Assembly: GCA_040878345.1 (NCBI GenBank)
Contig: JBBDML010000015.1
Coordinates: forward strand, 20,882 to 84,881
From: Acidimicrobiia bacterium
GTDB lineage: Bacteria > Actinomycetota > Acidimicrobiia > Spongiisociales > ZC4RG35
Direction: 5' to 3'
Length of the DNA: 64,000 nucleotides
Translations under genes and position numbers: made by a program
The notes under the pieces: generated by a model
The model's input: only the letters and a program-made list of their open reading frames with translations
Databases searched by the model: none
Told to the model about the DNA's origin: nothing
In this document: positions 68 to 60,259 of the stretch, piece after piece
How the letters are laid out: each line of letters opens with the position of its first letter
How positions within the stretch are numbered: position 1 is the stretch's first letter

Positions 68-721
68 TCAGCCGATCAGACGGGCGGCGGTGGTGAAGAC
101 CCGGGGGTCGGGGTAATCGGCGCAGTAGTTGTAGACATAGGCAACCCGGATCATCCCGTCGGGTGCCACCACGTACTCGGCCGATTGCATCCAGGGATCG
201 TCGACCAACGGGCGGCCCTGGCTCCGACGATCCTCCTGAAAGCGGCGACCGGTGTCCTCACCGAGGTCACAGAACTCCTCCGGTGCGTCGTAGAGCGACT
301 GTTCCAGCGACCAGTGACCCAATCCGAACGCCTTGTGGGCCCGGTACCCCGGGTCGGCGAGGATGGGCGCCGGGATCTGATTGCGCTCCTGGTAGGCGCC
401 CACCCGATCGGGGTCTCCCGGCGCTACGATCACCGCCCCAAGCCCGGAGTCGAGGTACCCCTGGTACTCGTCCTGGAGACGCTGGGCACGCTCCATACCG
501 CAGCCGCAGCCGAGATGACGCCAGAGCAGGACGAGAGCAGGCCGTTCCTGCCACCAAGTCTCCAGGGCTATTGGCGCTCCCCCGACGTCCAGGACCTCGA
601 CACTCGGGGCCATGTCGCCTCGCCGCAATGGGCGTCCCTCGATCGTTGGCCCGGCCAGCCAGCCCTGCATCCAGCGGTTCTCGGCCGAGAGGGTGAGGGC
701 AAGCATGTCTCTGTCGGTCAT
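68..721 (-). CDS. Thioredoxin-fold redoxin (AhpC/TSA-like family) protein
   Basis: 217-aa ORF with a thioredoxin-like layout and a Cys-containing motif WRHLGCGCGM. Family assignment comes from general resemblance only. Confidence 0.45.
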   Translation of the reverse strand: MTDRDMLALTLSAENRWMQGWLAGPTIEGRPLRRGDMAPSVEVLDVGGAPIALETWWQERPALVLLWRHLGCGCGMERAQRLQDEYQGYLDSGLGAVIVAPGDPDRVGAYQERNQIPAPILADPGYRAHKAFGLGHWSLEQSLYDAPEEFCDLGEDTGRRFQEDRRSQGRPLVDDPWMQSAEYVVAPDGMIRVAYVYNYCADYPDPRVFTTAARLIG

Positions 722-2296: not shown

Positions 2297-2563
2297 TCAG
2301 TCACGCGGGTAGCGGGTGACTCCTTCGGCGTGCTTGGTGGTGAACAGCTCCAGGACTTCTCCCGGTTCGGCGTGACGCCCGATTTGATGCTTGGAGAAAA
2401 GGGTCTCCCCGTCGACGGTCACGTCGAACACACCCTTGGCACCGGTGGTGAAGGTCAGGGACTCGATGATGTGCTGGTAGTTGACCAGCAGGTCACTGGC
2501 CGTGCCCACGGCACGGGCCGAATAGTCTCAAGGGACGCAGTAGGTGATGTCGATCACGTGCAT
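2297..2563 (-). CDS. SelW/Rdx-family selenoprotein (CxxU redox motif), in-frame UGA = Sec at codon 12
   Basis: The ORF track lists only 2297..2509 because of an in-frame TGA at 2528-2530. Reading the minus strand upstream of that TGA gives, in the same frame, ATG(2563) H V I D I T Y C V P UGA D Y S A R A V G T A S D L L V N Y Q H I I E S L... A GGAGGA Shine-Dalgarno sits 6 nt before the ATG. The motif ITYCVPU matches the Rdx/SelW hallmark (e.g. YCGAUGY). A hairpin (2498..2519) begins 8 nt after the UGA. Confidence 0.6.
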
Positions 2564-2664
2564 TGGATCCTCCGTTACCTGGTCCGGAGAGGATAGGGCA
2601 CCAATCGCCACCCCAGTCACCAGGGCACCTCTGTCGTTCGACCAGTTGGTGGAGGCGGTGACGA

Positions 2665-3420
2665 TCAGCCGGAGTCATGCAAGGAATCCGCCAGCTCCAG
2701 AGCGTCTTCGAGGGACTGGGTGGTCTCGATCCGATGGGTGACCCCACCCTCCTCCCAAGCCAGGACGTTGCCGGCGAGACGCGCCATGTCCTCGTGGAAC
2801 ATGCCCTCCGCATCGACATACACCAGGTAGTGAGGTCCGCCCTCCAGCCAGAACCCCGGGTTACCCCGCACCCTGATGTCCTGCACGATGACGTCGTGAT
2901 CGACGCTCTTCATGAACACCTCGGCGCCGGTGACCTCGAATTGGCTGTAGAGGATGCCCACATCGGTGTCCCCTGCGGCCGGGAGCTCCCGGTCCGATCG
3001 CCATACCATGTGAATCGCCCCACCGGCCGGTATCGCCGATCGGTACACGGCGTCGGGGGCGCCGAGCCTCGGGTCGTCGGGAGACAGCAATTGGAAGGAG
3101 ACGGTGTCGCCTGCATCGTCGAGCCCGACCATCTCACCCAGATCGAGATTGGCCCCGGCTGGAGAATCTGGCTCGGCCCAACTCACCCTGATCCCAGCCA
3201 CCTCGAGGATGTCGGCGACCGCCTGTCGGCCCCATGGTGTGGCGATCACCGTGGCCACGACGAGGAGGACCAGGGCCGCCATCTGGGCCCACCGTGGAAG
3301 GACGACCCGTGCCCACCGGACTGGTGTTGCGAGACGGCCCCTTACTGCCTTCCGCAGATCGGCTCGAGGCCAGTCGATCTGAGAGGCCACCGACGTGATG
3401 AGGCGCTCCAGGTCAGACAT
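2665..3420 (-). CDS. Anti-sigma factor-like membrane protein (downstream of ECF sigma)
   Basis: 251 aa. Cytoplasmic N-terminus, one TM segment (AALVLLVVATVIATPW), then an extracytoplasmic domain. Overlaps the sigma gene stop by 8 nt on the same strand. Confidence 0.5.
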   Translation of the reverse strand: MSDLERLITSVASQIDWPRADLRKAVRGRLATPVRWARVVLPRWAQMAALVLLVVATVIATPWGRQAVADILEVAGIRVSWAEPDSPAGANLDLGEMVGLDDAGDTVSFQLLSPDDPRLGAPDAVYRSAIPAGGAIHMVWRSDRELPAAGDTDVGILYSQFEVTGAEVFMKSVDHDVIVQDIRVRGNPGFWLEGGPHYLVYVDAEGMFHEDMARLAGNVLAWEEGGVTHRIETTQSLEDALELADSLHDSG

Positions 3421-3988
3421 CTGCCGCCTCCATGAGGTTCCGCAGTCTCCACAGCGCTCGTGAGGTCCTCGACTTCACGGTGCCGGTGGCGATCGCAAGG
3501 ACCGCGGCGGTCTCGGCCTCGGTGAGCCCCAACAGGTATCGAAGTGAGACCACCAGGCGGTATCGGTCGGGTAGCCCATCCACCGCTACCAGGACGGTCC
3601 GGGCCCTCTCCTCATCGATCACAACCGTCTCGGGGGATTGGGCCGCCTCCCCCGAAACGGGCTCCGCAGCCACACGAAGTGCCAGACGGCGTCGTCTCCC
3701 CCCGCTGCGTCGACGGTTGGCGGCTTCGTTGCGCACGATCGTCAGCAACCAGGGGCGAAAAGGGGACCCTTCACGAAAACGGTCGAGAGCCCGGAATGCC
3801 TTGACGAAGGCATCCTGGGCGACCTCTTCGGCCTCGCCATGATCCCTCACCAGGAGGTAGGCGAGTCGAATGGCAGTGCTCTGGTGTATCCGCACGAGTT
3901 CCTCAAATGCACCCAGATCACCTGACCTGGCGTCGGAAACGAGTTGTGTCTCGTCCAGTGGACGGCCCTCCACCGCAGTATCAGCCAT
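3413..3988 (-). CDS. ECF-type RNA polymerase sigma-70 factor
   Basis: Region 2 (FEELVRIHQSTAIRLAYLLVRDHGEAEEVAQDAFVKAFRAL) and region 4 (LRYLLGLTEAETAAVLAIATGTVKSRTSRAL) signatures. The start was chosen at the internal Met (MADTAVEG); the ORF track begins at 4024. Confidence 0.75.
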   Translation of the reverse strand: MADTAVEGRPLDETQLVSDARSGDLGAFEELVRIHQSTAIRLAYLLVRDHGEAEEVAQDAFVKAFRALDRFREGSPFRPWLLTIVRNEAANRRRSGGRRRRLALRVAAEPVSGEAAQSPETVVIDEERARTVLVAVDGLPDRYRLVVSLRYLLGLTEAETAAVLAIATGTVKSRTSRALWRLRNLMEAADV

Positions 3989-4128
3989 CCATACACCGCA
4001 AGGGCGATCGAGGTTCCGTCGCAATTGGAGGGAACCCGGGCGGTGAGTGCGGTGTATTGCAGTGTGATCGGGGCCAAGCCCGAGGGCGATGGCGCCTCGC
4101 TCGGAGAGATTCCGTTGATAGGAGAGAC

Positions 4129-5252: not shown

Positions 5253-5663
5253 TCAGCCGAAGGTGAGCCAGCCGGCCAGGGAGGCCCCGAACACGGTGAT
5301 GGGCAGGAAAGTGAATCGCTCCCACCTGGTTCCCTGGAACAGGTTGTAGATGGCGGCGATGGAGAGGAAGGCGGTAACCACCCAGCCCGTCGACCTGGAC
5401 CAGGCCGCGGGGACCGGGGAGACATCGACCGTCCCGCCGAAAGCGGCCACCACCCAGGCGGAGAGGAGCAGAAGGATGGCATATCCCAAGCTGCGCCTCC
5501 GGTACGAGGGGTGGAGCCGTCGCGGGTATCGGCCCGACCACACCAGTTCGCCCATCCGCAGACCGCCCGCCATGAGCAGGTGGACCAGCGCCATCCAGAG
5601 GAAAAGTCCGGCGGCGAGAAGGGAGAGCCACTCGGCGTCCACTTCCATCAGGATACCGCTCAC
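5253..5663 (-). CDS. Hypothetical multi-pass membrane protein
   Basis: 136 aa with 4 predicted hydrophobic helices; no recognisable motif. Confidence 0.35.
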   Translation of the reverse strand: MSGILMEVDAEWLSLLAAGLFLWMALVHLLMAGGLRMGELVWSGRYPRRLHPSYRRRSLGYAILLLLSAWVVAAFGGTVDVSPVPAAWSRSTGWVVTAFLSIAAIYNLFQGTRWERFTFLPITVFGASLAGWLTFG

Positions 5664-7715: not shown

Positions 7716-7842
7716 CGGGGAAGTGTGTTTGCGGCGTGGGCGGCACTCACGGGAGTTAATTCTCAGACGGATAAGCGCGGACAAGAGCAACGATGACGAA
7801 GACGCCCACCACAAGGTCGAGCCACATTTGACTTTCCTGAGG

Positions 7843-7915
7843 TGGGTCCCGTGGGAATCGAACCCACAACCTTCGGGTTAAAAGCCCGCTGCTCTACCAA
7901 TTGAGCTAGAGACCC
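7843..7915 (-). tRNA. tRNA-Lys (anticodon UUU)
   Basis: Minus-strand sequence GGGTCTCTAGCTCAATTGGTAGAGCAGCGGGCTTTTAACCCGAAGGTTGTGGGTTCGATTCCCACGGGACCCA folds as a cloverleaf. The acceptor stem is GGGTCTC/GGGACCC, with a D-arm and a T-arm GTGGG-TTCGATT-CCCAC. The anticodon loop is CTTTTAA. A genomic CC follows the discriminator base. Confidence 0.85.
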
Positions 7916-8993: not shown

Positions 8994-9863
8994 ATGCGTT
9001 GGTACGGTTCGACGATGTTCGATCCCTATCTGGGCTGCCGGGTGGTCAACTGCGGGGAGTGCAATGTGACTGTGACCGATCATGGGACCACCGAAGGGTT
9101 TCCCGTGCTCCTGGTGCATGGTTTTCCCGACTCGGCCCGGCTCTGGCGTCATCAGATCCCGGTCCTGGCAGATGCCGGGTATCGGGTGATCGCCCCCGAT
9201 CTCAGGGGTTATGGCCGCTCGGACAAGCCCCAGGGCGTCGAGGCCTACCAGATGTCGAAACTCGCCTCCGACCTGGTAGCCGTGCTCGACGAGGCCGGTG
9301 TCGAACGGGCCCATCTGGTGGGCCACGACTGGGGCGCCGCCCTCGGCTGGTACTTCGCCGCCACTCATCCAGACCGTCTCAAGACCCTCACTGCCTTGTC
9401 CGCGGGGCACGCAGGTGGCTTCGCCGCAGCCGGCGTGGCACAACGGGAGAAGAGCTGGTACATGCTGTACTTCCTGATCGAGGGTCTCGCCGAATCGAGA
9501 CTCCCCGCCGACGATTGGTATTGGTTCCGCTCCTGGATCGGGCGTCATCCCGAGGTCGAGACCTGGATTGCAGACCTGAGCAGGCCCGGGGCCCTCACCG
9601 CAGCCCTGAATGTCTACCGGGCCAACATCAACCCCGAGACCTGGATCACACCACCCCGGGCTCTCCCCAAGGTCGAGGTTCCCACCATGGGAGTCTGGTC
9701 GGCCCGCGACCTTGCCCTGACCGAGACCCAGATGACCGCTTCCGGGGAGTTCGTGTCGGGGGAGTGGAGATACGAGAGGATCGAGGGGGCTTCCCACTGG
9801 ATCCCGCTCGACACTCCCAATGAGCTCAACCGGCTCCTCCTCGATTGGTTGGGGACGCACTGA
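8994..9863 (+). CDS. Alpha/beta-fold hydrolase (epoxide hydrolase/haloalkane dehalogenase-like)
   Basis: VLLVHGFPDSARLWRHQIPVLADAGYRVIAPDLRGYGRSD and nucleophile elbow HLVGHDWGAA. The start is ATG 8994 or 9015; the ORF upstream of that is antisense noise. Confidence 0.7.
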   Translation: MRWYGSTMFDPYLGCRVVNCGECNVTVTDHGTTEGFPVLLVHGFPDSARLWRHQIPVLADAGYRVIAPDLRGYGRSDKPQGVEAYQMSKLASDLVAVLDEAGVERAHLVGHDWGAALGWYFAATHPDRLKTLTALSAGHAGGFAAAGVAQREKSWYMLYFLIEGLAESRLPADDWYWFRSWIGRHPEVETWIADLSRPGALTAALNVYRANINPETWITPPRALPKVEVPTMGVWSARDLALTETQMTASGEFVSGEWRYERIEGASHWIPLDTPNELNRLLLDWLGTH

Positions 9864-9867
9864 TCCG

Positions 9868-11673
9868 GTGAGCGGCATCCGCTTCGGCATCTCCGACCTG
9901 CCGCCCGAAGGGTCAGACCCGGCGCTGTTCCTCGACGGGTTGGTGGAACAGGGTCATCGCGCCCTGGAACTGCCCTTCACCAAGGACTTCCCCTGGAAGG
10001 AGAAGCAATGCCAGGCGTTCGGGGTACTGGCCGCGGAGAGGGACATACGTCTCTCGGTGCATGCCCCCTACTTCGCCGGGCTGACCCTTCCCGAAGAGGA
10101 TCGGGGCAAGCAGTCCCTGGCCGCAATCGAGCACACCATGAAGCTGGGAAGGTGGCTGGGAGCACCGGTGATCGTTGCCCACTTCGGCTCCAATTACGAC
10201 GAGGACCCCGAGGTCCTGATGGATCGGATCAGGAAACGTCTCGACGCGGTGGCACCCAAGGTGGAGACGATCGGGGTGGGGTTGGGGCTGGAGACCGCCG
10301 GGAACCGAAGCTCCTTCGGGAGCCTGGGTGACATCGCCCAGCTCGTCTCGGAGTACAGCTTCGTCCGGCCGGTTGTCGACTGGGCTCACATCCACGCCAT
10401 GACCGGAGGCGGGCTCACCTCCAAGGCGGCCTTCCTCTCGGTCCTGGCCTTCATCAGAGACAGCTTCCCGGGGTGGATGATCTCGCCCCTCCAGGTGCAG
10501 TTCTCCGACAATCAGTTCGGCAGTGCTGGGGAGATTCGCCACGTGGCCTATGGGGAGGGGACTCTCAGGGTGGGGCCACTGGTCGATGCGGTCCTCGAGT
10601 CGGGGATGTCGATGGTCCTGATCTCCGAGGCACGCGACGCAGCTAGCCATGAGCTGATCTGGGAGGAGGCGAGAGCCCATCTCGAGGATCGGAGGGAGGG
10701 CGAGGGCCGGCTGGTCGCCCGGGCCCAGATCGACTTCCCAACGCCGGTGAGGGTGCGCAAGGATGGTGACAGGTTCGTCCCCGCCGACGTCGACAGGCCG
10801 ATCACCTTCACCAACATCGACAAGGTGTTCTTCCCCGAGGAGGGCTACACCAAGGGTGACCTGATCCAGTATTACGGCTCGGTGGCGCCGGCCCTGCTGC
10901 CCCATATCACCGATCGGCCCCTCTCGATGTCCCGCTATCCCGACGGGATCACCGGGCCATCGTTCTACGAGAAGAGGGCGCCGGGTCATCAGCCCGACTG
11001 GATGCGGACCACCCCGGTCCCATCCGACAGCCAAGGCGGGGAGCTCGACTTCCTCCTCGCCGACTCGAAGGAGGCTGTGATGTGGTTTGCCAACATGGGC
11101 TGCATCGAGTTTCACCCTTTCCACTCGAAGGCCGCCGCACTCGACAACCCGACCTACGCGATCTTCGATTTCGACCCTTCGGAGGGCTCGACCTGGGATC
11201 AGGTGGTTGCCGGCTCCAAGCTGCTCCGGGTGGCCCTTGGCCAGCTGGGGCTCAGCGGGTATCCCAAGTTGAGCGGTTCGCGGGGGCTCCACGTCTACGT
11301 GCCCCTGGAGCCGGTGCACGACTTCGGCCGGGTCCGCCGCTTCGTCGGGGAGGTCGGCGAGTACATGGCGGCGGCCAACCCCGAGGACATCACCATGGAG
11401 TGGGACAAGCCGAAGCGGAAGGGCAAGGTGTTCATCGATCACAACCGGAACGCATTCGGGCAAACCGTTGCCTCCGCCTACTCGGTGCGTCCCCGTCCCG
11501 GGGCGCCGGTGTCGGCCCCCCTCTCCTGGGACGAGGTCGACACGGTGGTCAACGGTGACCTCACCATCGTCACCATCTGGGAGCGATTGGTCAGGTACGG
11601 CGATCTGTTCGCCCCGGTGCTCGCCGGCGGTCAGACCTTGGACGCCGCCGAGTCGGCCTTGGGGATCGCCTGA
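9868..11673 (+). CDS. Fusion protein: endonuclease-IV-like (AP endonuclease family 2, xylose-isomerase-like TIM barrel) N-domain + LigD-type NHEJ polymerase (PolDom/PrimPol) C-domain
   Basis: The N-terminal half resembles Nfo-family metal-site segments: IRFGIS..., HAPYFAGL, LETAGNRSSFGSLGDIAQLV, VDWAHIHAMTGG, HVAYGEGTLRVGPLVDAVLESGMSMVLISEA. The C-terminal half matches mycobacterial LigD PolDom blocks: ITFTNIDKVFFPEEGYTKGDLIQYY, SRYPDGITGPSFYEKRAPGHQPDW, YAIFDFDPSEG, YPKLSGSRGLHVYVPLEP, KRKGKVFIDHNRNAFGQTVASAYSVRPRPGAPVSAPLSWDEV. The start was chosen at the in-frame GTG 9868, just after the upstream stop. The ORF track starts at ATG 9820, which overlaps the hydrolase. Confidence 0.6.
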   Translation: MSGIRFGISDLPPEGSDPALFLDGLVEQGHRALELPFTKDFPWKEKQCQAFGVLAAERDIRLSVHAPYFAGLTLPEEDRGKQSLAAIEHTMKLGRWLGAPVIVAHFGSNYDEDPEVLMDRIRKRLDAVAPKVETIGVGLGLETAGNRSSFGSLGDIAQLVSEYSFVRPVVDWAHIHAMTGGGLTSKAAFLSVLAFIRDSFPGWMISPLQVQFSDNQFGSAGEIRHVAYGEGTLRVGPLVDAVLESGMSMVLISEARDAASHELIWEEARAHLEDRREGEGRLVARAQIDFPTPVRVRKDGDRFVPADVDRPITFTNIDKVFFPEEGYTKGDLIQYYGSVAPALLPHITDRPLSMSRYPDGITGPSFYEKRAPGHQPDWMRTTPVPSDSQGGELDFLLADSKEAVMWFANMGCIEFHPFHSKAAALDNPTYAIFDFDPSEGSTWDQVVAGSKLLRVALGQLGLSGYPKLSGSRGLHVYVPLEPVHDFGRVRRFVGEVGEYMAAANPEDITMEWDKPKRKGKVFIDHNRNAFGQTVASAYSVRPRPGAPVSAPLSWDEVDTVVNGDLTIVTIWERLVRYGDLFAPVLAGGQTLDAAESALGIA

Positions 11674-55777: not shown

Positions 55778-56800
55778 GTGTCCGAAGTCACCCTCACCCA
55801 GTTCAGCCATGGTGCCGGCTGCGGCTGCAAGCTGGGCCCCGCCGAGCTCAACGAGGTGCTGGGCCCGATAAAAGGGCATCCGGCGACCATCCACCCGGAC
55901 CTCCTTGTGGGGTTGGGGACCAGCGACGATGCCGGTGTCTACTCATTGGGCGATGGCCGGGCCCTGGTCCAGACAGTCGATATCTTCACCCCAGTGGTCA
56001 ACTCACCACACGATTGGGGCCGGATCGCCGCAGCCAACGCCCTCTCCGACATCTACGCCATGGGGGCCACCCCATTGACCGCCCTCCAGTACCTGGCATG
56101 GCCCCGTGACCTGCTCCCCTTTGGGACCGCAACCGAGGTGGTGTCCGGAGGGCTTGGCGTGATGCAGAGCGCCGGGTGCACGGTGGTGGGGGGTCATTCC
56201 ATCGACTCGCCGGAGCCCACCTACGGGTTCGCCGTCACGGGGATCTCTGAGACCGGGAAGATCCTCACCAACGCCGGTGCCCGGCCCGGAGACGCCCTGG
56301 TCCTGACCAAGCCGCTGGGGACCGGGATCATCACCACCGCCATCAAGCGCGGGAAGTGCCCGCCGGAGGTCGAGCGGGCGGCGATCGAGACCATGACCAC
56401 CCTCAATGCCGTGGCGGCTTCCCATCTCCATGAGCACGCGGCGTCGGCGGTCACCGACGTCACCGGGTTCGGTTTGCTGGGGCATCTCCACGAGATGTGC
56501 GTCGCTTCGGGAGTGGGTGCGGAGATCGATCTGGCCTCGGTCCCGATGCTGAAGGGGGCCATCGAGCTCCTGGCTCTAGGGATGTGGGCCGGTGGGTCAC
56601 AGAGGAACCTCGAATCGACCCTTCCCCACGTCGACAGCAGCCACGAGTTGGGGTCTCTCCAGCCACTCTTCGACGCCCAGACCTCTGGGGGCCTGCTGGT
56701 GGCCCTCCCGGCGGAGTCGGCCGCTGGATATGCCGCATCGGTGGCTGGGGCGGTGATGATCGGGAGGCTCACTGCCGACCACAGGATGAGGGTGGTGTGA
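55778..56800 (+). CDS. selD: Selenide, water dikinase (selenophosphate synthetase), Cys-type
   Basis: The N-terminus LTQFSHGAGCGCKLGP matches SelD LTQYSHGAGCGCKI. AIR-synthase-related domains are present throughout. The catalytic position is Cys, not Sec. Confidence 0.85.
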   Translation: MSEVTLTQFSHGAGCGCKLGPAELNEVLGPIKGHPATIHPDLLVGLGTSDDAGVYSLGDGRALVQTVDIFTPVVNSPHDWGRIAAANALSDIYAMGATPLTALQYLAWPRDLLPFGTATEVVSGGLGVMQSAGCTVVGGHSIDSPEPTYGFAVTGISETGKILTNAGARPGDALVLTKPLGTGIITTAIKRGKCPPEVERAAIETMTTLNAVAASHLHEHAASAVTDVTGFGLLGHLHEMCVASGVGAEIDLASVPMLKGAIELLALGMWAGGSQRNLESTLPHVDSSHELGSLQPLFDAQTSGGLLVALPAESAAGYAASVAGAVMIGRLTADHRMRVV

Positions 56801-58963: not shown

Positions 58964-60259
58964 ATGGTGACGGCCCATGCCATCGGCGGCCGCGCCGACC
59001 TCTCGGTGCCCCTCGAGTACTTCGTGGTGGGTGCGGTGCTGGTGCTCCTCATCTCCTTCGGCGCCCTGGCGGTGCTCTGGCCCGAGCCGCGGCTCCAGGG
59101 TGGTCCCGACTACTCCGGCTCCAGTGGTCCGAGGGCGCGCCCCTGGCCACTGGGGGTCATCGGGGTGCTCGGTCTGATCCTGGTGATCGGTCAGCTGTGG
59201 GTGCCGTTAATGGGGCTGGAGCCCGATCCCACCCGTCCCACCATCGCACCGGTCCTGGTCTGGGTCGGGCTCTGGTTGTTCGTCCCGTTCATGTCGGTGT
59301 TCCTCGGCAACTGGTACGCCGATCTCAACCCCTGGCGGGCCCTGGCCCGGGTCTACCGCCTGGGGGGTGTCGAACGGCCCCACCTCCTCGACCGGTGGGG
59401 TCTGTGGCCGGCATCGGTGGGCCTGCTCGGGCTGACCTGGTTCGAGCTGATCAGCGCCTCCCCCGGATCACCGGCCACATTGGGACTGGTGGCCCTGGCC
59501 TACACCTTGTTCCTGCTCGGGGCGATTGCCTTTGCCGGGAAGGAGACCGCTCTGATCACCTTCGACCTGTTCACCACCCAGAACCGCCTGTTCTCCGCCA
59601 TCTCCCCGCTGGGTCGCACCGACCGGGGGCGTCTGGTGTGGAGAGGGTGGCTGAGGGCCCTGACCGTCATCCCCGAATGGCGTGGTCTATGGGTCTTCGT
59701 GGTCGTAATGATCGGCACGGTCACCTACGACGGCGCGTCTGGTGCGGCATGGTTCGGAGATGTGACCGCCAGTTTGGGGAGAACCCAGACGGGAGAGACG
59801 TTGCTCCTGGTCCTCGCCGTGGTGGTGGTTGGGATCGCCTATCTCGGCGCCTGCTCGGTGGCGGCGAGGCTCAGCGACACCGGCACCAGTGTCGCCAGGG
59901 TCGCCCAGCGCTTCGCCCACACCCTGGTGCCCATCGCCCTCGCCTATGCCTTTGCCCACTACTTCACCCTTGTCCTCTTCGAGGGACAGCAGTTGATATC
60001 CGCCATCTCGGACCCACTTGGGCTCGGCTGGGACCTGTTCGGGACCGCGGGTCGTCGGACCGTGTTCTTCCTCACCTCCACCACCACGGTCTGGTACATC
60101 CAGGTGGCGTCTATCGTCGGTGGTCATGTCCTCGGTGTCGTCTTGGCCCATGACCGGGCGCTCGCCGATTTTGGTCCTGGCGCCATCCGCTCCCAGTACG
60201 CCATGCTGAGCCTGATGGCCGCCCTGACATCGCTGGGTCTATGGGTCCTGGCCGGATGA
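58964..60259 (+). CDS. Hypothetical polytopic membrane protein (upstream of ctaB)
   Basis: About 10 TM helices; no motif recognised. Confidence 0.4.
   Translation: MVTAHAIGGRADLSVPLEYFVVGAVLVLLISFGALAVLWPEPRLQGGPDYSGSSGPRARPWPLGVIGVLGLILVIGQLWVPLMGLEPDPTRPTIAPVLVWVGLWLFVPFMSVFLGNWYADLNPWRALARVYRLGGVERPHLLDRWGLWPASVGLLGLTWFELISASPGSPATLGLVALAYTLFLLGAIAFAGKETALITFDLFTTQNRLFSAISPLGRTDRGRLVWRGWLRALTVIPEWRGLWVFVVVMIGTVTYDGASGAAWFGDVTASLGRTQTGETLLLVLAVVVVGIAYLGACSVAARLSDTGTSVARVAQRFAHTLVPIALAYAFAHYFTLVLFEGQQLISAISDPLGLGWDLFGTAGRRTVFFLTSTTTVWYIQVASIVGGHVLGVVLAHDRALADFGPGAIRSQYAMLSLMAALTSLGLWVLAG

What the first reader, a model, noticed from the sequence alone, without database searches (positions are those of the whole stretch)
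2297..2563. SelW/Rdx-like selenoprotein missed by ORF calling: ATG-...-C-V-P-UGA with a strong RBS and a downstream hairpin
On the minus strand, GGAGGA-N6-ATG (2563) opens a frame reading MHVIDITYCVP-UGA-DYSARAVGTASDLLVNYQ... This runs seamlessly into the annotated 70-aa ORF 2297..2509. The CxxU motif preceded by a hydrophobic beta strand and Tyr is the defining Rdx/SelW/SelT signature. A 9-bp stem with one bulge (GGCCCGUGCC-GUG-GGCACGGCC, forward 2498..2519) starts 8 nt after the UGA.
Basis: partly seen in the sequence, partly recalled or inferred. Interest (0 to 1): 0.6.

Follow-up and report, generated by a model that had tools for sequence, protein, structure and literature searches.

The report
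SelW-like selenoprotein gene, miscalled short
This is a small redox protein gene of the well-known SelW/Rdx family whose in-frame TGA very probably encodes selenocysteine, so gene callers cut off its first 18 codons; it is a correct catch, but the family and mechanism are already known.

Summary
On the minus strand, ATG (2563) opens MHVIDITYCVP-TGA-DYSARAV… and runs in frame into the 70-aa ORF, ending at 2297. The only error is the RBS spacing, which is GGAGGA-N4-ATG, not N6.

- **Family:** the read-through product scores 54.7 bits on Pfam Rdx, against 29.3 for the truncated ORF, and passes TIGR02174 (CXXU_selWTH).
- **Conservation:** the TGA sits at the same codon in all 67 non-Cys homologous sequences examined (window plus 66 public loci), and 14 Ktedonobacterales/Chloroflexia loci have Cys there. 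The 11 upstream codons evolve as coding sequence (pN/pS 0.44 upstream, 0.43 downstream).
- **Hairpin:** it occupies nt 15-31 after the U of UGA, as in the E. coli minimal SECIS. G22/U23 in the loop are invariant, 5 of 6 core pairs show compensatory changes, and synonymous variation is suppressed.
- **Fold:** a model of a natural Cys ortholog matches bacterial SelW-related crystal structures (TM about 0.8).
- **Machinery:** selD lies in the same window (55778-56800).

SelA, SelB and tRNA-Sec were not found in these 64 kb, so they remain unchecked. Bacterial CxxU SelW-like selenoproteins have been described since 2005, so this is a new member of a known kind. The practical point is that nearly all database orthologs are truncated, because the called GTG start is the SECIS apical loop.

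The parts
2297..2563 (-). Full coding sequence of an 88-residue SelW-like/Rdx selenoprotein (MHVIDITYCVP-U-DYSARAV…RYPRD), stop codon included
   Evidence: Translation. Pfam Rdx 54.7 bits against a cut-off of 22.6, and TIGR02174 44 bits against 34.2. Full-length tblastn matches in 80 loci.
2568..2573 (-). Shine-Dalgarno-like GGAGGA, 4 nt upstream of the ATG
   Evidence: Read directly from the sequence. Sequence conservation and codon periodicity are lost 5' of the start codon.
2561..2563 (-). ATG start codon
   Evidence: Orthologs start 9-13 codons before the Sec codon.
2537..2539 (-). TGC codon for Cys9, the resolving Cys of the CxxU motif
   Evidence: Cys is invariant in all 51 group-A sequences. 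It aligns with the first Cys of the CxxC motif in PDB Rdx proteins.
2528..2530 (-). In-frame TGA read as selenocysteine (residue 12)
   Evidence: TGA in 67 of 67 non-Cys homologous sequences (window plus 66 loci) and TGC/TGT in 14 Cys-form loci at the same codon. It aligns with the second Cys of the CxxC motif in 3DEX, 2FA8 and 2OKA.
2500..2516 (-). Core bSECIS stem-loop, nt 15-31 counted from the U of UGA. The family form is a 6-bp stem with a 5-nt loop; in this window it is 7 bp with a GUG loop.
   Evidence: Alignment A1 and pair counts: 5 of 6 core pairs carry compensatory changes, and 0 of 500 shuffles reach the observed covariation score. Synonymous diversity is 0.16 in the hairpin codons against 0.59 elsewhere. 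The geometry equals that of the E. coli minimal SECIS (PMC8659212).
2498..2519 (-).
   Evidence: Present in the window. The outer pairs are only 44% and 74% paired across orthologs.
2507..2509 (-). GUG in the apical loop (G22, U23, G24). This is also the false GTG start of the miscalled 70-aa ORF.
   Evidence: G22 and T23 are invariant and G24 is nearly invariant in A1. The ORF list gives the 70-aa ORF a GTG start at 2509.
55778..56800 (+). selD, selenophosphate synthetase (Cys type, SHGAGCGCK), the selenium donor enzyme for Sec synthesis
   Evidence: TIGR00476 389.4 bits against a cut-off of 125, and NF002098 352.4 bits against 299. Translation.

Best explanation
Window 2563-2297 (minus strand) encodes an 88-residue SelW-like/Rdx thioredoxin-fold protein whose active-site motif is Cys9-Val-Pro-Sec12.

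During translation, the hairpin at nt 15-31 after the UGA is bound through its apical loop (G22/U23) by the Sec-specific elongation factor SelB carrying Sec-tRNA(Sec). The UGA at 2530-2528 is therefore decoded as selenocysteine instead of stopping translation. Selenophosphate for Sec synthesis comes from the SelD encoded 53 kb away in the same window.

The product is most likely a small thiol/selenol oxidoreductase that cycles between a Cys9-Sec12 selenenylsulfide and the reduced form. Its physiological partner is unknown.

- Shown here: family membership, conservation of the UGA, coding status of the upstream peptide, conservation and covariation of the hairpin, and the presence of selD.
- Inferred: actual Sec insertion, SelB binding and redox function.
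For: 1. Profiles. Rdx scores 54.7 bits and covers profile positions 2-71 only with the N-terminal extension, and TIGR02174 CXXU_selWTH scores 44 bits against a cut-off of 34.2.
2. PDB sequence hits. All are Rdx/SelW-related proteins, and their CxxC aligns on CVP-U.
3. Conservation. TGA sits at the same codon in 67 of 67 non-Cys homologous sequences from Acidimicrobiia and at least seven other phyla, and Cys is there in 14 Ktedonobacterales/Chloroflexia loci and in P0042.
4. Coding signature. The upstream peptide has pN/pS 0.44 against 0.43 downstream, with third-position excess that is lost 5' of the ATG. Tyr and Cys at positions -4 and -3 are invariant.
5. Hairpin. 85% of cells are paired, against 55% or less in slid registers. 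Seven of 8 pairs have double changes. None of 500 shuffles reaches the observed score. G22/U23 are invariant.
6. Other phyla. An equivalent hairpin with an invariant G-U loop and strong covariation is present there too.
7. Synonymous sites. They are frozen in the hairpin: GCC in 47 of 48 sequences and GTG in 50 of 51.
8. Geometry. It matches the E. coli minimal SECIS: 17 nt, 11 nt from the UGA, G-U in the loop (PMC8659212).
9. Fold. The AF2 model of the Cys ortholog P0042 has pLDDT 87.9, with topology β1-CxxC-α1-β2-β3-β4-α2. The top Foldseek hits are 2FA8, 2OBK, 2OKA, 2P0G and 3DEX at TM 0.75-0.87, and mouse SelW at 0.71.
10. Machinery. selD is in the window.
11. Genetic code. TGA is the ordinary stop in 47 of 63 window genes.
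12. Literature. Bacterial CxxU SelW-like selenoproteins are documented (PMC1088965, PMC1794560), and Sec machinery is reported in the class Acidimicrobiia (bioRxiv 10.64898/2026.04.03.716425).
Against: - No SelA, SelB or tRNA-Sec was found in the 64-kb window or in the 81 related loci. SelD alone can also serve the selenouridine or Se-cofactor pathways.
- Folding energy alone does not separate the Sec forms from the Cys forms.
- The hairpin lacks the bulged U17 of the E. coli element, and its G-U sits one position earlier.
- Rfam has no match, although bacterial SECIS elements are poorly covered there.
- There is no experimental evidence of Sec insertion or of function.
- The fold was predicted for a 61%-identical Cys ortholog, not for the window protein itself.
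Confidence: 0.9

Rival explanations
1. The real gene is the 70-aa ORF that starts at GTG 2509, as gene callers annotate it. On this reading the upstream ATG…TGA stretch is a non-coding leader or an unrelated mini-ORF.
For: - ORF callers list it this way.
- About 229 of 231 database homologs are deposited as 69-74 aa proteins.
- The GTG is invariant across close orthologs.
Against: - The upstream 11 codons are conserved at the protein level with the same pN/pS as the body of the gene.
- The 70-aa product would lack β1 and the CxxU/CxxC motif that defines the fold.
- Its Rdx score falls by 25 bits.
- No RBS precedes the GTG.
- Homologs in other phyla have no GTG there but keep the TGA and the hairpin.
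- The invariance of the GTG is explained by its being the SECIS loop.
Confidence: 0.03
2. The gene is a pseudogene: a CxxC Rdx gene inactivated by a TGC-to-TGA nonsense mutation.
For: TGA is one base away from TGC. A TGC variant (P0042) and a GGA variant (P0067) exist in the clade.
Against: - TGA is present at this codon in all 67 non-Cys homologous sequences across several phyla.
- Purifying selection acts on both sides of the TGA.
- A hairpin is conserved immediately downstream.
- The Cys and Gly variants are singletons on short contigs and still carry the hairpin.
Confidence: 0.01
3. The UGA is read through without selenocysteine. This could be near-cognate Trp or Cys insertion stimulated by the hairpin, or a lineage-specific change in the meaning of UGA.
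For: SelA, SelB and tRNA-Sec were not found in the sequence available. Stable hairpins can stimulate read-through.
Against: - TGA terminates 47 of 63 genes in the window, including this gene itself.
- The recoded position is the catalytic Cys/Sec site of a family with documented Sec forms (PMC1088965).
- The hairpin has SelB-type geometry and a G-U loop.
- selD is present, and selenouridine use was not found in the Actinobacteria surveyed (PMC1794560).
Confidence: 0.05
4. The hairpin is not a recoding signal. On this reading it is a by-product of the conserved RAVSA peptide in GC-rich DNA, or a transcriptional or mRNA-stability element.
For: - The region is GC-rich.
- Cys-form genes also fold to similar energies.
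- The z-score of the window fold is only -2.2.
Against: - Synonymous sites inside the stem are frozen while those elsewhere vary.
- Compensatory double changes occur, including non-synonymous pairs (CGC…GCG to CAC…GUG).
- Other phyla with a different peptide and a different codon phase still have a hairpin with a G-U loop after the TGA.
- No U-tract follows the stem, and no terminator was predicted there.
Confidence: 0.02

Closest known systems
Bacterial SelW-like proteins (Rdx family, Pfam PF10262; NCBIfam TIGR02174 CXXU_selWTH), as described by Zhang and Gladyshev (PMC1088965, PMC1794560)
   Same: - About 80-90 residues with a thioredoxin-like β1-α1-β2-β3-β4-α2 fold.
- A CxxU motif between β1 and α1.
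- A bacterial SECIS inside the ORF just after the UGA, with a G in a small apical loop.
- Few Cys homologs within Sec-using lineages.
- Routinely misannotated.
   Different: Nothing fundamental differs.

- This clade (Acidimicrobiia-type, CVPU-DYSxRAV, conserved GRHAEPGEV) is a distinct sequence subgroup.
- It scores below the cut-off of the Campylobacter-type equivalog NF041051 (67 against 88 bits).
- Its SECIS core is minimal: 6 bp plus a CGUGA loop.
Solved Cys-form Rdx proteins: 3DEX (SAV_2001, Streptomyces avermitilis), 2FA8 (Atu0228), 2OBK, 2OKA, 2OJL, 2P0G
   Same: Sequence E-values run from 3e-6 to 4e-2, with the CxxC aligned on CVP-U. The ortholog model superposes at TM 0.75-0.87 and rmsd 1.6-2.1 Å.
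   Different: - They carry CxxC (CTQC), not CxxU.
- Sequence identity is 22-29%.
- They are about 100-108 residues long with extra termini.
- None has a defined biochemical function either.
Mammalian selenoprotein W (mouse SelW, 2NPB) and MIEN1 (2LJK)
   Same: Same fold (TM 0.71 to 2NPB) and the same position of the CxxU motif.
   Different: Eukaryotic SelW uses a 3'-UTR SECIS with SBP2/eEFSec, whereas here the signal is a coding-region hairpin of the bacterial type. Identity is about 20%.
E. coli fdhF SECIS, the reference bacterial Sec insertion element
   Same: The essential upper stem-loop is 17 nt, occupies nt 15-31, lies 11 nt after the UGA, and has a conserved G-U in the apical loop (PMC8659212). 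The window element occupies exactly nt 15-31 and has invariant G22/U23.
   Different: - There is no bulged U17.
- The G-U sits one nucleotide earlier.
- The loop is CGUGA (GUG in this window) rather than GGUC-type.
- Homologs in other phyla have the more classical GGUCU loop, 4 nt further downstream.

Membership tests
Rdx / SelW-SelT-SelH family (Pfam PF10262, NCBIfam TIGR02174) | Profile HMM score above the curated cut-off over the full domain | tested here: met
   PF10262 scores 54.7 bits against a cut-off of 22.6 and covers profile positions 2-71 of 74. TIGR02174 scores 44 bits against 34.2 (Sec entered as Cys).
Rdx / SelW-SelT-SelH family (Pfam PF10262, NCBIfam TIGR02174) | CxxC/CxxU redox motif directly after the first β-strand, at the start of helix α1 | tested here: met
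   YCVP-U at residues 8-12 aligns with the YCTQC of 3DEX, 2FA8 and 2OKA. In the model of ortholog P0042 the motif (residues 10-13) lies between strand E3-9 and helix H15-33.
Rdx / SelW-SelT-SelH family (Pfam PF10262, NCBIfam TIGR02174) | Thioredoxin-like β1-α1-β2-β3-β4-α2 fold | tested here: met
   The AF2 model of the 61%-identical Cys ortholog P0042 has pLDDT 87.9. The 21 best Foldseek PDB hits are all SelW-related proteins at TM 0.75-0.87. The test was done on the ortholog, not on the window sequence itself.
Rdx / SelW-SelT-SelH family (Pfam PF10262, NCBIfam TIGR02174) | Thiol/selenol oxidoreductase activity | not testable with these tools
   Inferred only, from the motif and the fold. The function of bacterial members is undefined in the literature read (PMC1088965).
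NCBIfam NF041051 SelTWH_Campy (equivalog) | Score above the equivalog cut-off of 88 bits | tested here: not met
   67.3 bits. The protein is related to this equivalog group but is not a member of it.
Bacterial selenoprotein (SelB/SECIS-dependent UGA recoding) | In-frame UGA aligned with Cys in homologs, with conserved flanks on both sides | tested here: met
   67 TGA, 9 TGC and 5 TGT at the same codon. The flanks are conserved and under purifying selection.
Bacterial selenoprotein (SelB/SECIS-dependent UGA recoding) | Stem-loop immediately downstream of the UGA with a small apical loop containing G (G-U), about 11 nt from the UGA | tested here: met
   The core stem-loop is at nt 15-31 and G22/U23 are invariant. 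The criteria come from PMC1088965 and PMC8659212.
Bacterial selenoprotein (SelB/SECIS-dependent UGA recoding) | Evolutionary support for the RNA structure (covariation, synonymous constraint) | tested here: met
   none of 500 shuffles reach the covariation score, and slid registers score far lower; synonymous diversity is 0.16 in the hairpin against 0.59 elsewhere.
Bacterial selenoprotein (SelB/SECIS-dependent UGA recoding) | Selenophosphate synthetase SelD in the genome | tested here: met
   Window 55778-56800, TIGR00476 389 bits.
Bacterial selenoprotein (SelB/SECIS-dependent UGA recoding) | SelA, SelB and tRNA-Sec (selC) in the genome | tested here: inconclusive
   None were found in the 64-kb window or in the related loci (ARAGORN; tblastn with E. 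coli SelA/SelB). The rest of the genome is not available. Sec machinery is reported in another order of the same class (bioRxiv 10.64898/2026.04.03.716425).
Bacterial selenoprotein (SelB/SECIS-dependent UGA recoding) | Physical incorporation of selenium at the UGA position | not testable with these tools
   This needs 75Se labelling or mass spectrometry.

The most novel reading that the evidence does not exclude
The SelW-like selenoprotein may be the dedicated reductant, or redox relay partner, of a peroxiredoxin or thioredoxin-type enzyme in these bacteria. That would assign a function to bacterial SelW-like proteins, which still have none.

The hints are all from gene neighbourhood:
- A Tpx-like Redoxin gene sits divergently about 0.54 kb upstream in 6 related Acidimicrobiia loci, and 3.1-3.3 kb away in 2 more.
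- An AhpC/TSA-like ORF lies 1.8 kb away in this window.
- A Thioredoxin_9 gene lies 66-327 nt upstream on the same strand in 11 of 14 Cys-form loci.

The linked loci are phylogenetically clustered, so this is only a lead.
Probability: 0.1. Interest if true: 0.45.

Novelty: new member of a known kind. Interest (0 to 1): 0.2.

Why it matters
Biologically it is a routine example. CxxU SelW-like proteins were already the most abundant selenoprotein family in the 2005 Sargasso Sea survey, and the recoding mechanism is textbook.

Its value is practical:
- It shows that this uncultured, Acidimicrobiia-like actinobacterium very probably uses selenocysteine.
- Essentially the whole ortholog set in public databases (about 229 of 231 hits) is deposited as a 69-74 aa fragment lacking the active site. 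The fragment starts at a GTG that is really the SECIS apical loop.
- The set of 67 aligned Sec-form genes gives a clean, covariation-supported minimal SECIS (6 bp plus a CGUGA loop at nt 15-31). This could be used to train or benchmark bacterial selenoprotein predictors.

Tried and rejected
1. Folding energy as a discriminator. The mean MFE of the 45 nt after the codon is -13.4 kcal/mol for Sec forms and -14.1 for Cys forms, with similar z-scores. This is uninformative in GC-rich DNA and was replaced by positional and covariation tests.
2. Rfam. There was no hit at gathering thresholds in the window. Only chance-level hits appeared in 2250-2650 at E ≤ 10 (ZMP-ZTP at 18.6 bits against 39).
3. 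Search for a second selenoprotein in the window. In-frame TGAs flanked by coding-like sequence gave only gene junctions and antisense artefacts. The filter was strict enough to miss the SelW-like gene itself, so this is a weak negative.
4. Search for SelA, SelB and tRNA-Sec.
   - ARAGORN on the window and on 60 loci found nothing.
   - A SelA PLP-motif scan found nothing.
   - tblastn with E. coli SelA and SelB found nothing below E = 0.06.
   - Pfam/NCBIfam annotation of 40 window ORFs found only SelD.
5. Walking out from the window. The exact SelD sequence is on record only on a 13.7-kb contig.
6. Synteny. Only L001 shares the ECF sigma / 251-aa ORF / SelW-like / GYD / DUF7485 order, so no conserved operon was found.
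7. The Actinomarina preprint's top family. I could not test whether its "78 aa uncharacterized" selenoprotein family is this family, because the text holds no sequences.

Full report
**Observation**

On the minus strand an ATG at 2563-2561 opens the frame MHVIDITYCVP. A TGA follows at 2530-2528, and the frame continues as DYSARAVGTASDLLVNYQ… to a TGA stop at 2299-2297. The mechanical ORF list gives only the 70-aa GTG ORF 2297..2509. The hairpin GGCCCGUGCC-GUG-GGCACGGCC lies at 2498-2519, starts 8 nt after the UGA, and has 9 bp with one bulged C. The local fold is -25.7 kcal/mol with z = -2.2. The description is therefore correct apart from the RBS spacing.

**Protein family**

With Sec entered as Cys, the 88-residue product scores 54.7 bits on Pfam Rdx (PF10262, cut-off 22.6) across profile positions 2-71. 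The 70-aa ORF alone scores 29.3 bits over positions 20-71. NCBIfam TIGR02174 (CXXU_selWTH, "SelT/SelW/SelH family protein") scores 44 bits against a cut-off of 34.2. The Campylobacter-type equivalog NF041051 scores 67.3 bits, below its cut-off of 88.

Against PDB sequences, the only hits are Rdx/SelW-related proteins: 3DEX, 2FA8, 2OKA, 2OBK, 2OJL, 2P0G and MIEN1 2LJK. Their YCTQC motif aligns exactly on YCVP-U.

An AlphaFold model was built for P0042, a natural full-length Cys ortholog with 61% identity. The tool would not accept an edited window sequence. The model has pLDDT 87.9 and the order β1(3-9) / CxxC(10-13) / α1(15-33) / β2 / β3 / β4 / α2. Its 21 best Foldseek matches in the PDB are all bacterial SelW-related structures (TM 0.75-0.87, rmsd 1.6-2.1 Å). 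MIEN1 and mouse SelW (TM 0.71) follow, and generic thioredoxins come only after those.

**Comparative evidence for recoding**

A protein search returned 231 homologs. Almost all were deposited as 69-74 aa proteins covering only 73-82% of the query. Their source names include "Rdx family protein", "selenoprotein W-related protein" and "predicted Rdx family selenoprotein". Two are full length: P0042 with CVPC and P0067 with CVPG.

A scan of one genome per species returned 80 loci, and the tblastn matches cross the TGA position. Translating them shows three groups:
- All 50 close loci, mostly Acidimicrobiia MAGs, have an in-frame TGA at the same codon within ITYCVP*DYSxRAV.
- Sixteen more distant loci have YCxx*NY (one *NF, one *GY). 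They come from Lentisphaerae, Gemmatimonadota, Desulfobulbus, Verrucomicrobia, Planctomycetota, Acidobacteriota and others.
- Fourteen Ktedonobacterales/Chloroflexia loci have CSEC or CAEC.

In total the codon is TGA in 67 sequences, TGC in 9 and TGT in 5.

Within the close group, the nine codons before the TGA have pN/pS 0.44, against 0.43 for the 24 codons after it. Diversity is concentrated at third positions (0.23, 0.17 and 0.40 for positions 1, 2 and 3). The 18 nt around and before the start show no periodicity (0.60, 0.63, 0.64). Tyr at -4 and Cys at -3 are invariant. The upstream peptide is therefore translated in this frame, and the TGA is maintained by selection. This excludes a pseudogene and excludes a real start at the downstream GTG.

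**The hairpin**

Raw folding energy does not distinguish Sec forms from Cys forms, so I tested a specific structure on gapless alignments anchored at the TGA.

In the close group (A1, 51 sequences) the conserved core is a 6-bp stem at columns 15-20 and 26-31, counting T of TGA as column 1. The loop is CGUGA, and G22 and T23 are invariant. In this window an extra C-G pair closes the loop down to GUG. Pair counts on the 8-pair version gave:
- 85% of cells paired, against 18-55% in slid registers.
- Seven of 8 pairs with changes on both sides.
- None of 500 shuffles reaching the covariation score.
- Five of the 6 core pairs showing compensatory types, such as C-G to U-A and G-C to A-U. Some involve paired non-synonymous changes (CGC…GCG to CAC…GUG).

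The distant Sec group (A2, 16 sequences) has an equivalent 6-bp stem 4 nt further downstream, so it sits in a different codon phase. Its loop is (A/G)GU(C/U/G)U with invariant G-T. It is 91% paired, 4 of 6 pairs carry double changes, and 0 of 500 shuffles reach the score.

Synonymous sites inside the stem are nearly frozen. Ala+6 is GCC in 47 of 48 sequences, Val+7 is GTG in 50 of 51, and Ala+9 is GCG in 35 of 41. The mean third-position diversity is 0.16, against 0.59 at comparably conserved codons elsewhere.

The geometry matches what a review states for E. coli: the essential upper stem-loop is 17 nt, spans nt 15-31, lies 11 nt from the UGA, and has G23/U24 in the apical loop (PMC8659212). 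[quoted passage not shown] The differences from E. coli are that there is no bulged U17 and that the G-U sits one position earlier.

The invariant loop GUG (2509-2507) is exactly the GTG that ORF callers take as the start codon. This explains the systematic truncation in the databases.

**Sec machinery and genetic code**

- TGA terminates 47 of 63 predicted genes in the window, including this gene itself, so the code is standard.
- The window encodes SelD at 55778-56800 (+). It scores 389 bits on TIGR00476 (cut-off 125) and 352 bits on NF002098 (cut-off 299). Its active site reads SHGAGCGCK, so it is a Cys-type SelD.
- The window has no tRNA-Sec; its only tRNA is tRNA-Lys at 7841-7915. None was found in 60 related loci either.
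- No SelA or SelB was found by family annotation of 40 window ORFs. tblastn with E. coli SelA and SelB against the window and all loci gave a best E of 0.06.
- SelD alone is not proof of the Sec trait. However, a 2006 survey found no selenouridine trait in any sequenced actinobacterium (PMC1794560). A 2026 preprint reports selA, selB, selC and selD in all 84 complete genomes of Actinomarina, which belongs to the class Acidimicrobiia.
- The rest of the source genome could not be reached. The exact SelD sequence is on record only on a 13.7-kb contig.

**Context**

On the minus strand the order is:
- ECF sigma factor (3413-4024).
- An unannotated 251-aa ORF in the anti-sigma position (2665-3420).
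- The SelW-like gene.
- A GYD-domain protein (1938-2231).
- DUF7485 (763-1869).
- An AhpC/TSA-like protein (68-721).

Only L001 shares this order, so there is no conserved operon. Redox neighbours do recur:
- A Tpx-like Redoxin gene lies divergently about 0.54 kb upstream in six closely related loci, and about 3.2 kb away in two more.
- A Thioredoxin_9 gene lies 66-327 nt upstream on the same strand in 11 of 14 Cys-form loci.

These fit a thiol-redox role, but the loci are phylogenetically clustered.

**Variants**

P0042 (TGC) and P0067 (GGA) each differ from TGA by one base. Both retain an intact hairpin, and both come from single short contigs. They are recent substitutions or read errors. 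This agrees with the published remark that SelW-like proteins have very few Cys homologs in Sec-using organisms (PMC1794560).

**Comparison with what is known, and verdict**

Bacterial SelW-like CxxU selenoproteins with in-ORF SECIS elements were described by 2005. They were then the most abundant selenoprotein family in the Sargasso Sea data, with 48 genes (PMC1088965). NCBIfam has a model named for exactly this motif.

The window gene meets every family feature that could be tested. It fails only the narrower Campylobacter-type equivalog. The one feature left open is genome-wide presence of selA, selB and selC.

It is therefore a new member of a known kind. The useful by-products are the annotation correction and a well-supported minimal SECIS alignment.

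Noticed in passing
window 55778-56800 (+): selD (selenophosphate synthetase), Cys type with SHGAGCGCK. It scores 389 bits on TIGR00476. It is flanked by a double-GNAT acetyltransferase and a small 2Fe-2S-ferredoxin-like ORF, not by selA, selB or selC.
   Followed up: yes
window 2507-2509 (-), and database homologs P0001-P0120: The GTG used as the start of the 70-aa ORF is the apical loop of the SECIS hairpin. About 229 of 231 database homologs are deposited as 69-74 aa fragments that lack β1 and the CxxU motif.
   Followed up: yes
L083 289-558 (P0042) and L084 76-348 (P0067): Two full-length variants of the same clade carry TGC (Cys) or GGA (Gly) instead of TGA. Both keep an intact SECIS hairpin and both sit on singleton contigs under 1.4 kb. 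They are recent point substitutions or sequencing errors.
   Followed up: partly
L051-L064, L066, L080 (alignment A2): Sec-form homologs in other phyla place the SECIS stem 4 nt further from the UGA, so it falls in a different codon phase. Their loop is the more classical (A/G)GU(C/U/G)U, with invariant G26/T27 and strong covariation.
   Followed up: yes
L033, L035, L036, L037, L041, L046 (about 0.54 kb upstream, divergent); L019, L022 (about 3.2 kb); window 68-721 (-): Peroxiredoxin-type genes recur near the SelW-like gene. The related loci have a Tpx-like Redoxin gene, and this window has an AhpC/TSA-like ORF with a CGCG motif. The linked loci are mostly one subclade, so independence is doubtful.
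   Followed up: partly
L065, L067-L073, L076, L077, L079: In Ktedonobacterales/Chloroflexia the Cys-form (CSEC/CAEC) Rdx gene lies 66-327 nt downstream of a Thioredoxin_9 (PF14595) gene on the same strand, in 11 of 14 loci. This is probably an operon.
   Followed up: partly
window 2665-4024 (-): An ECF sigma factor (3413-4024) is followed by a 251-aa ORF with no family hit, in the position of an anti-sigma factor. Both lie directly upstream of the SelW-like gene on the same strand, and the order is shared only with L001. Whether the selenoprotein gene belongs to this sigma factor's regulon was not tested.
   Followed up: no
L047 (Acidimicrobiales SAG AG-414-N20) and L048: Low-GC marine versions of the gene (82 aa, CLPU). 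They might correspond to the "most abundant, 78 aa, uncharacterized" selenoprotein family reported for Actinomarina (bioRxiv 10.64898/2026.04.03.716425). That text holds no sequences to compare.
   Followed up: partly
window 9820-11673 (+): A 617-aa ORF combines an AP_endonuc_2 / xylose-isomerase-like TIM barrel (residues 42-290) with a LigD primase-polymerase domain (residues 344-597).
   Followed up: no
window 58964-60259 (+) and 5253-5663 (-): Coding-like ORFs of 431 aa and 136 aa with high GC3. Neither has a Pfam hit, and the 431-aa ORF also has no NCBIfam hit.
   Followed up: no
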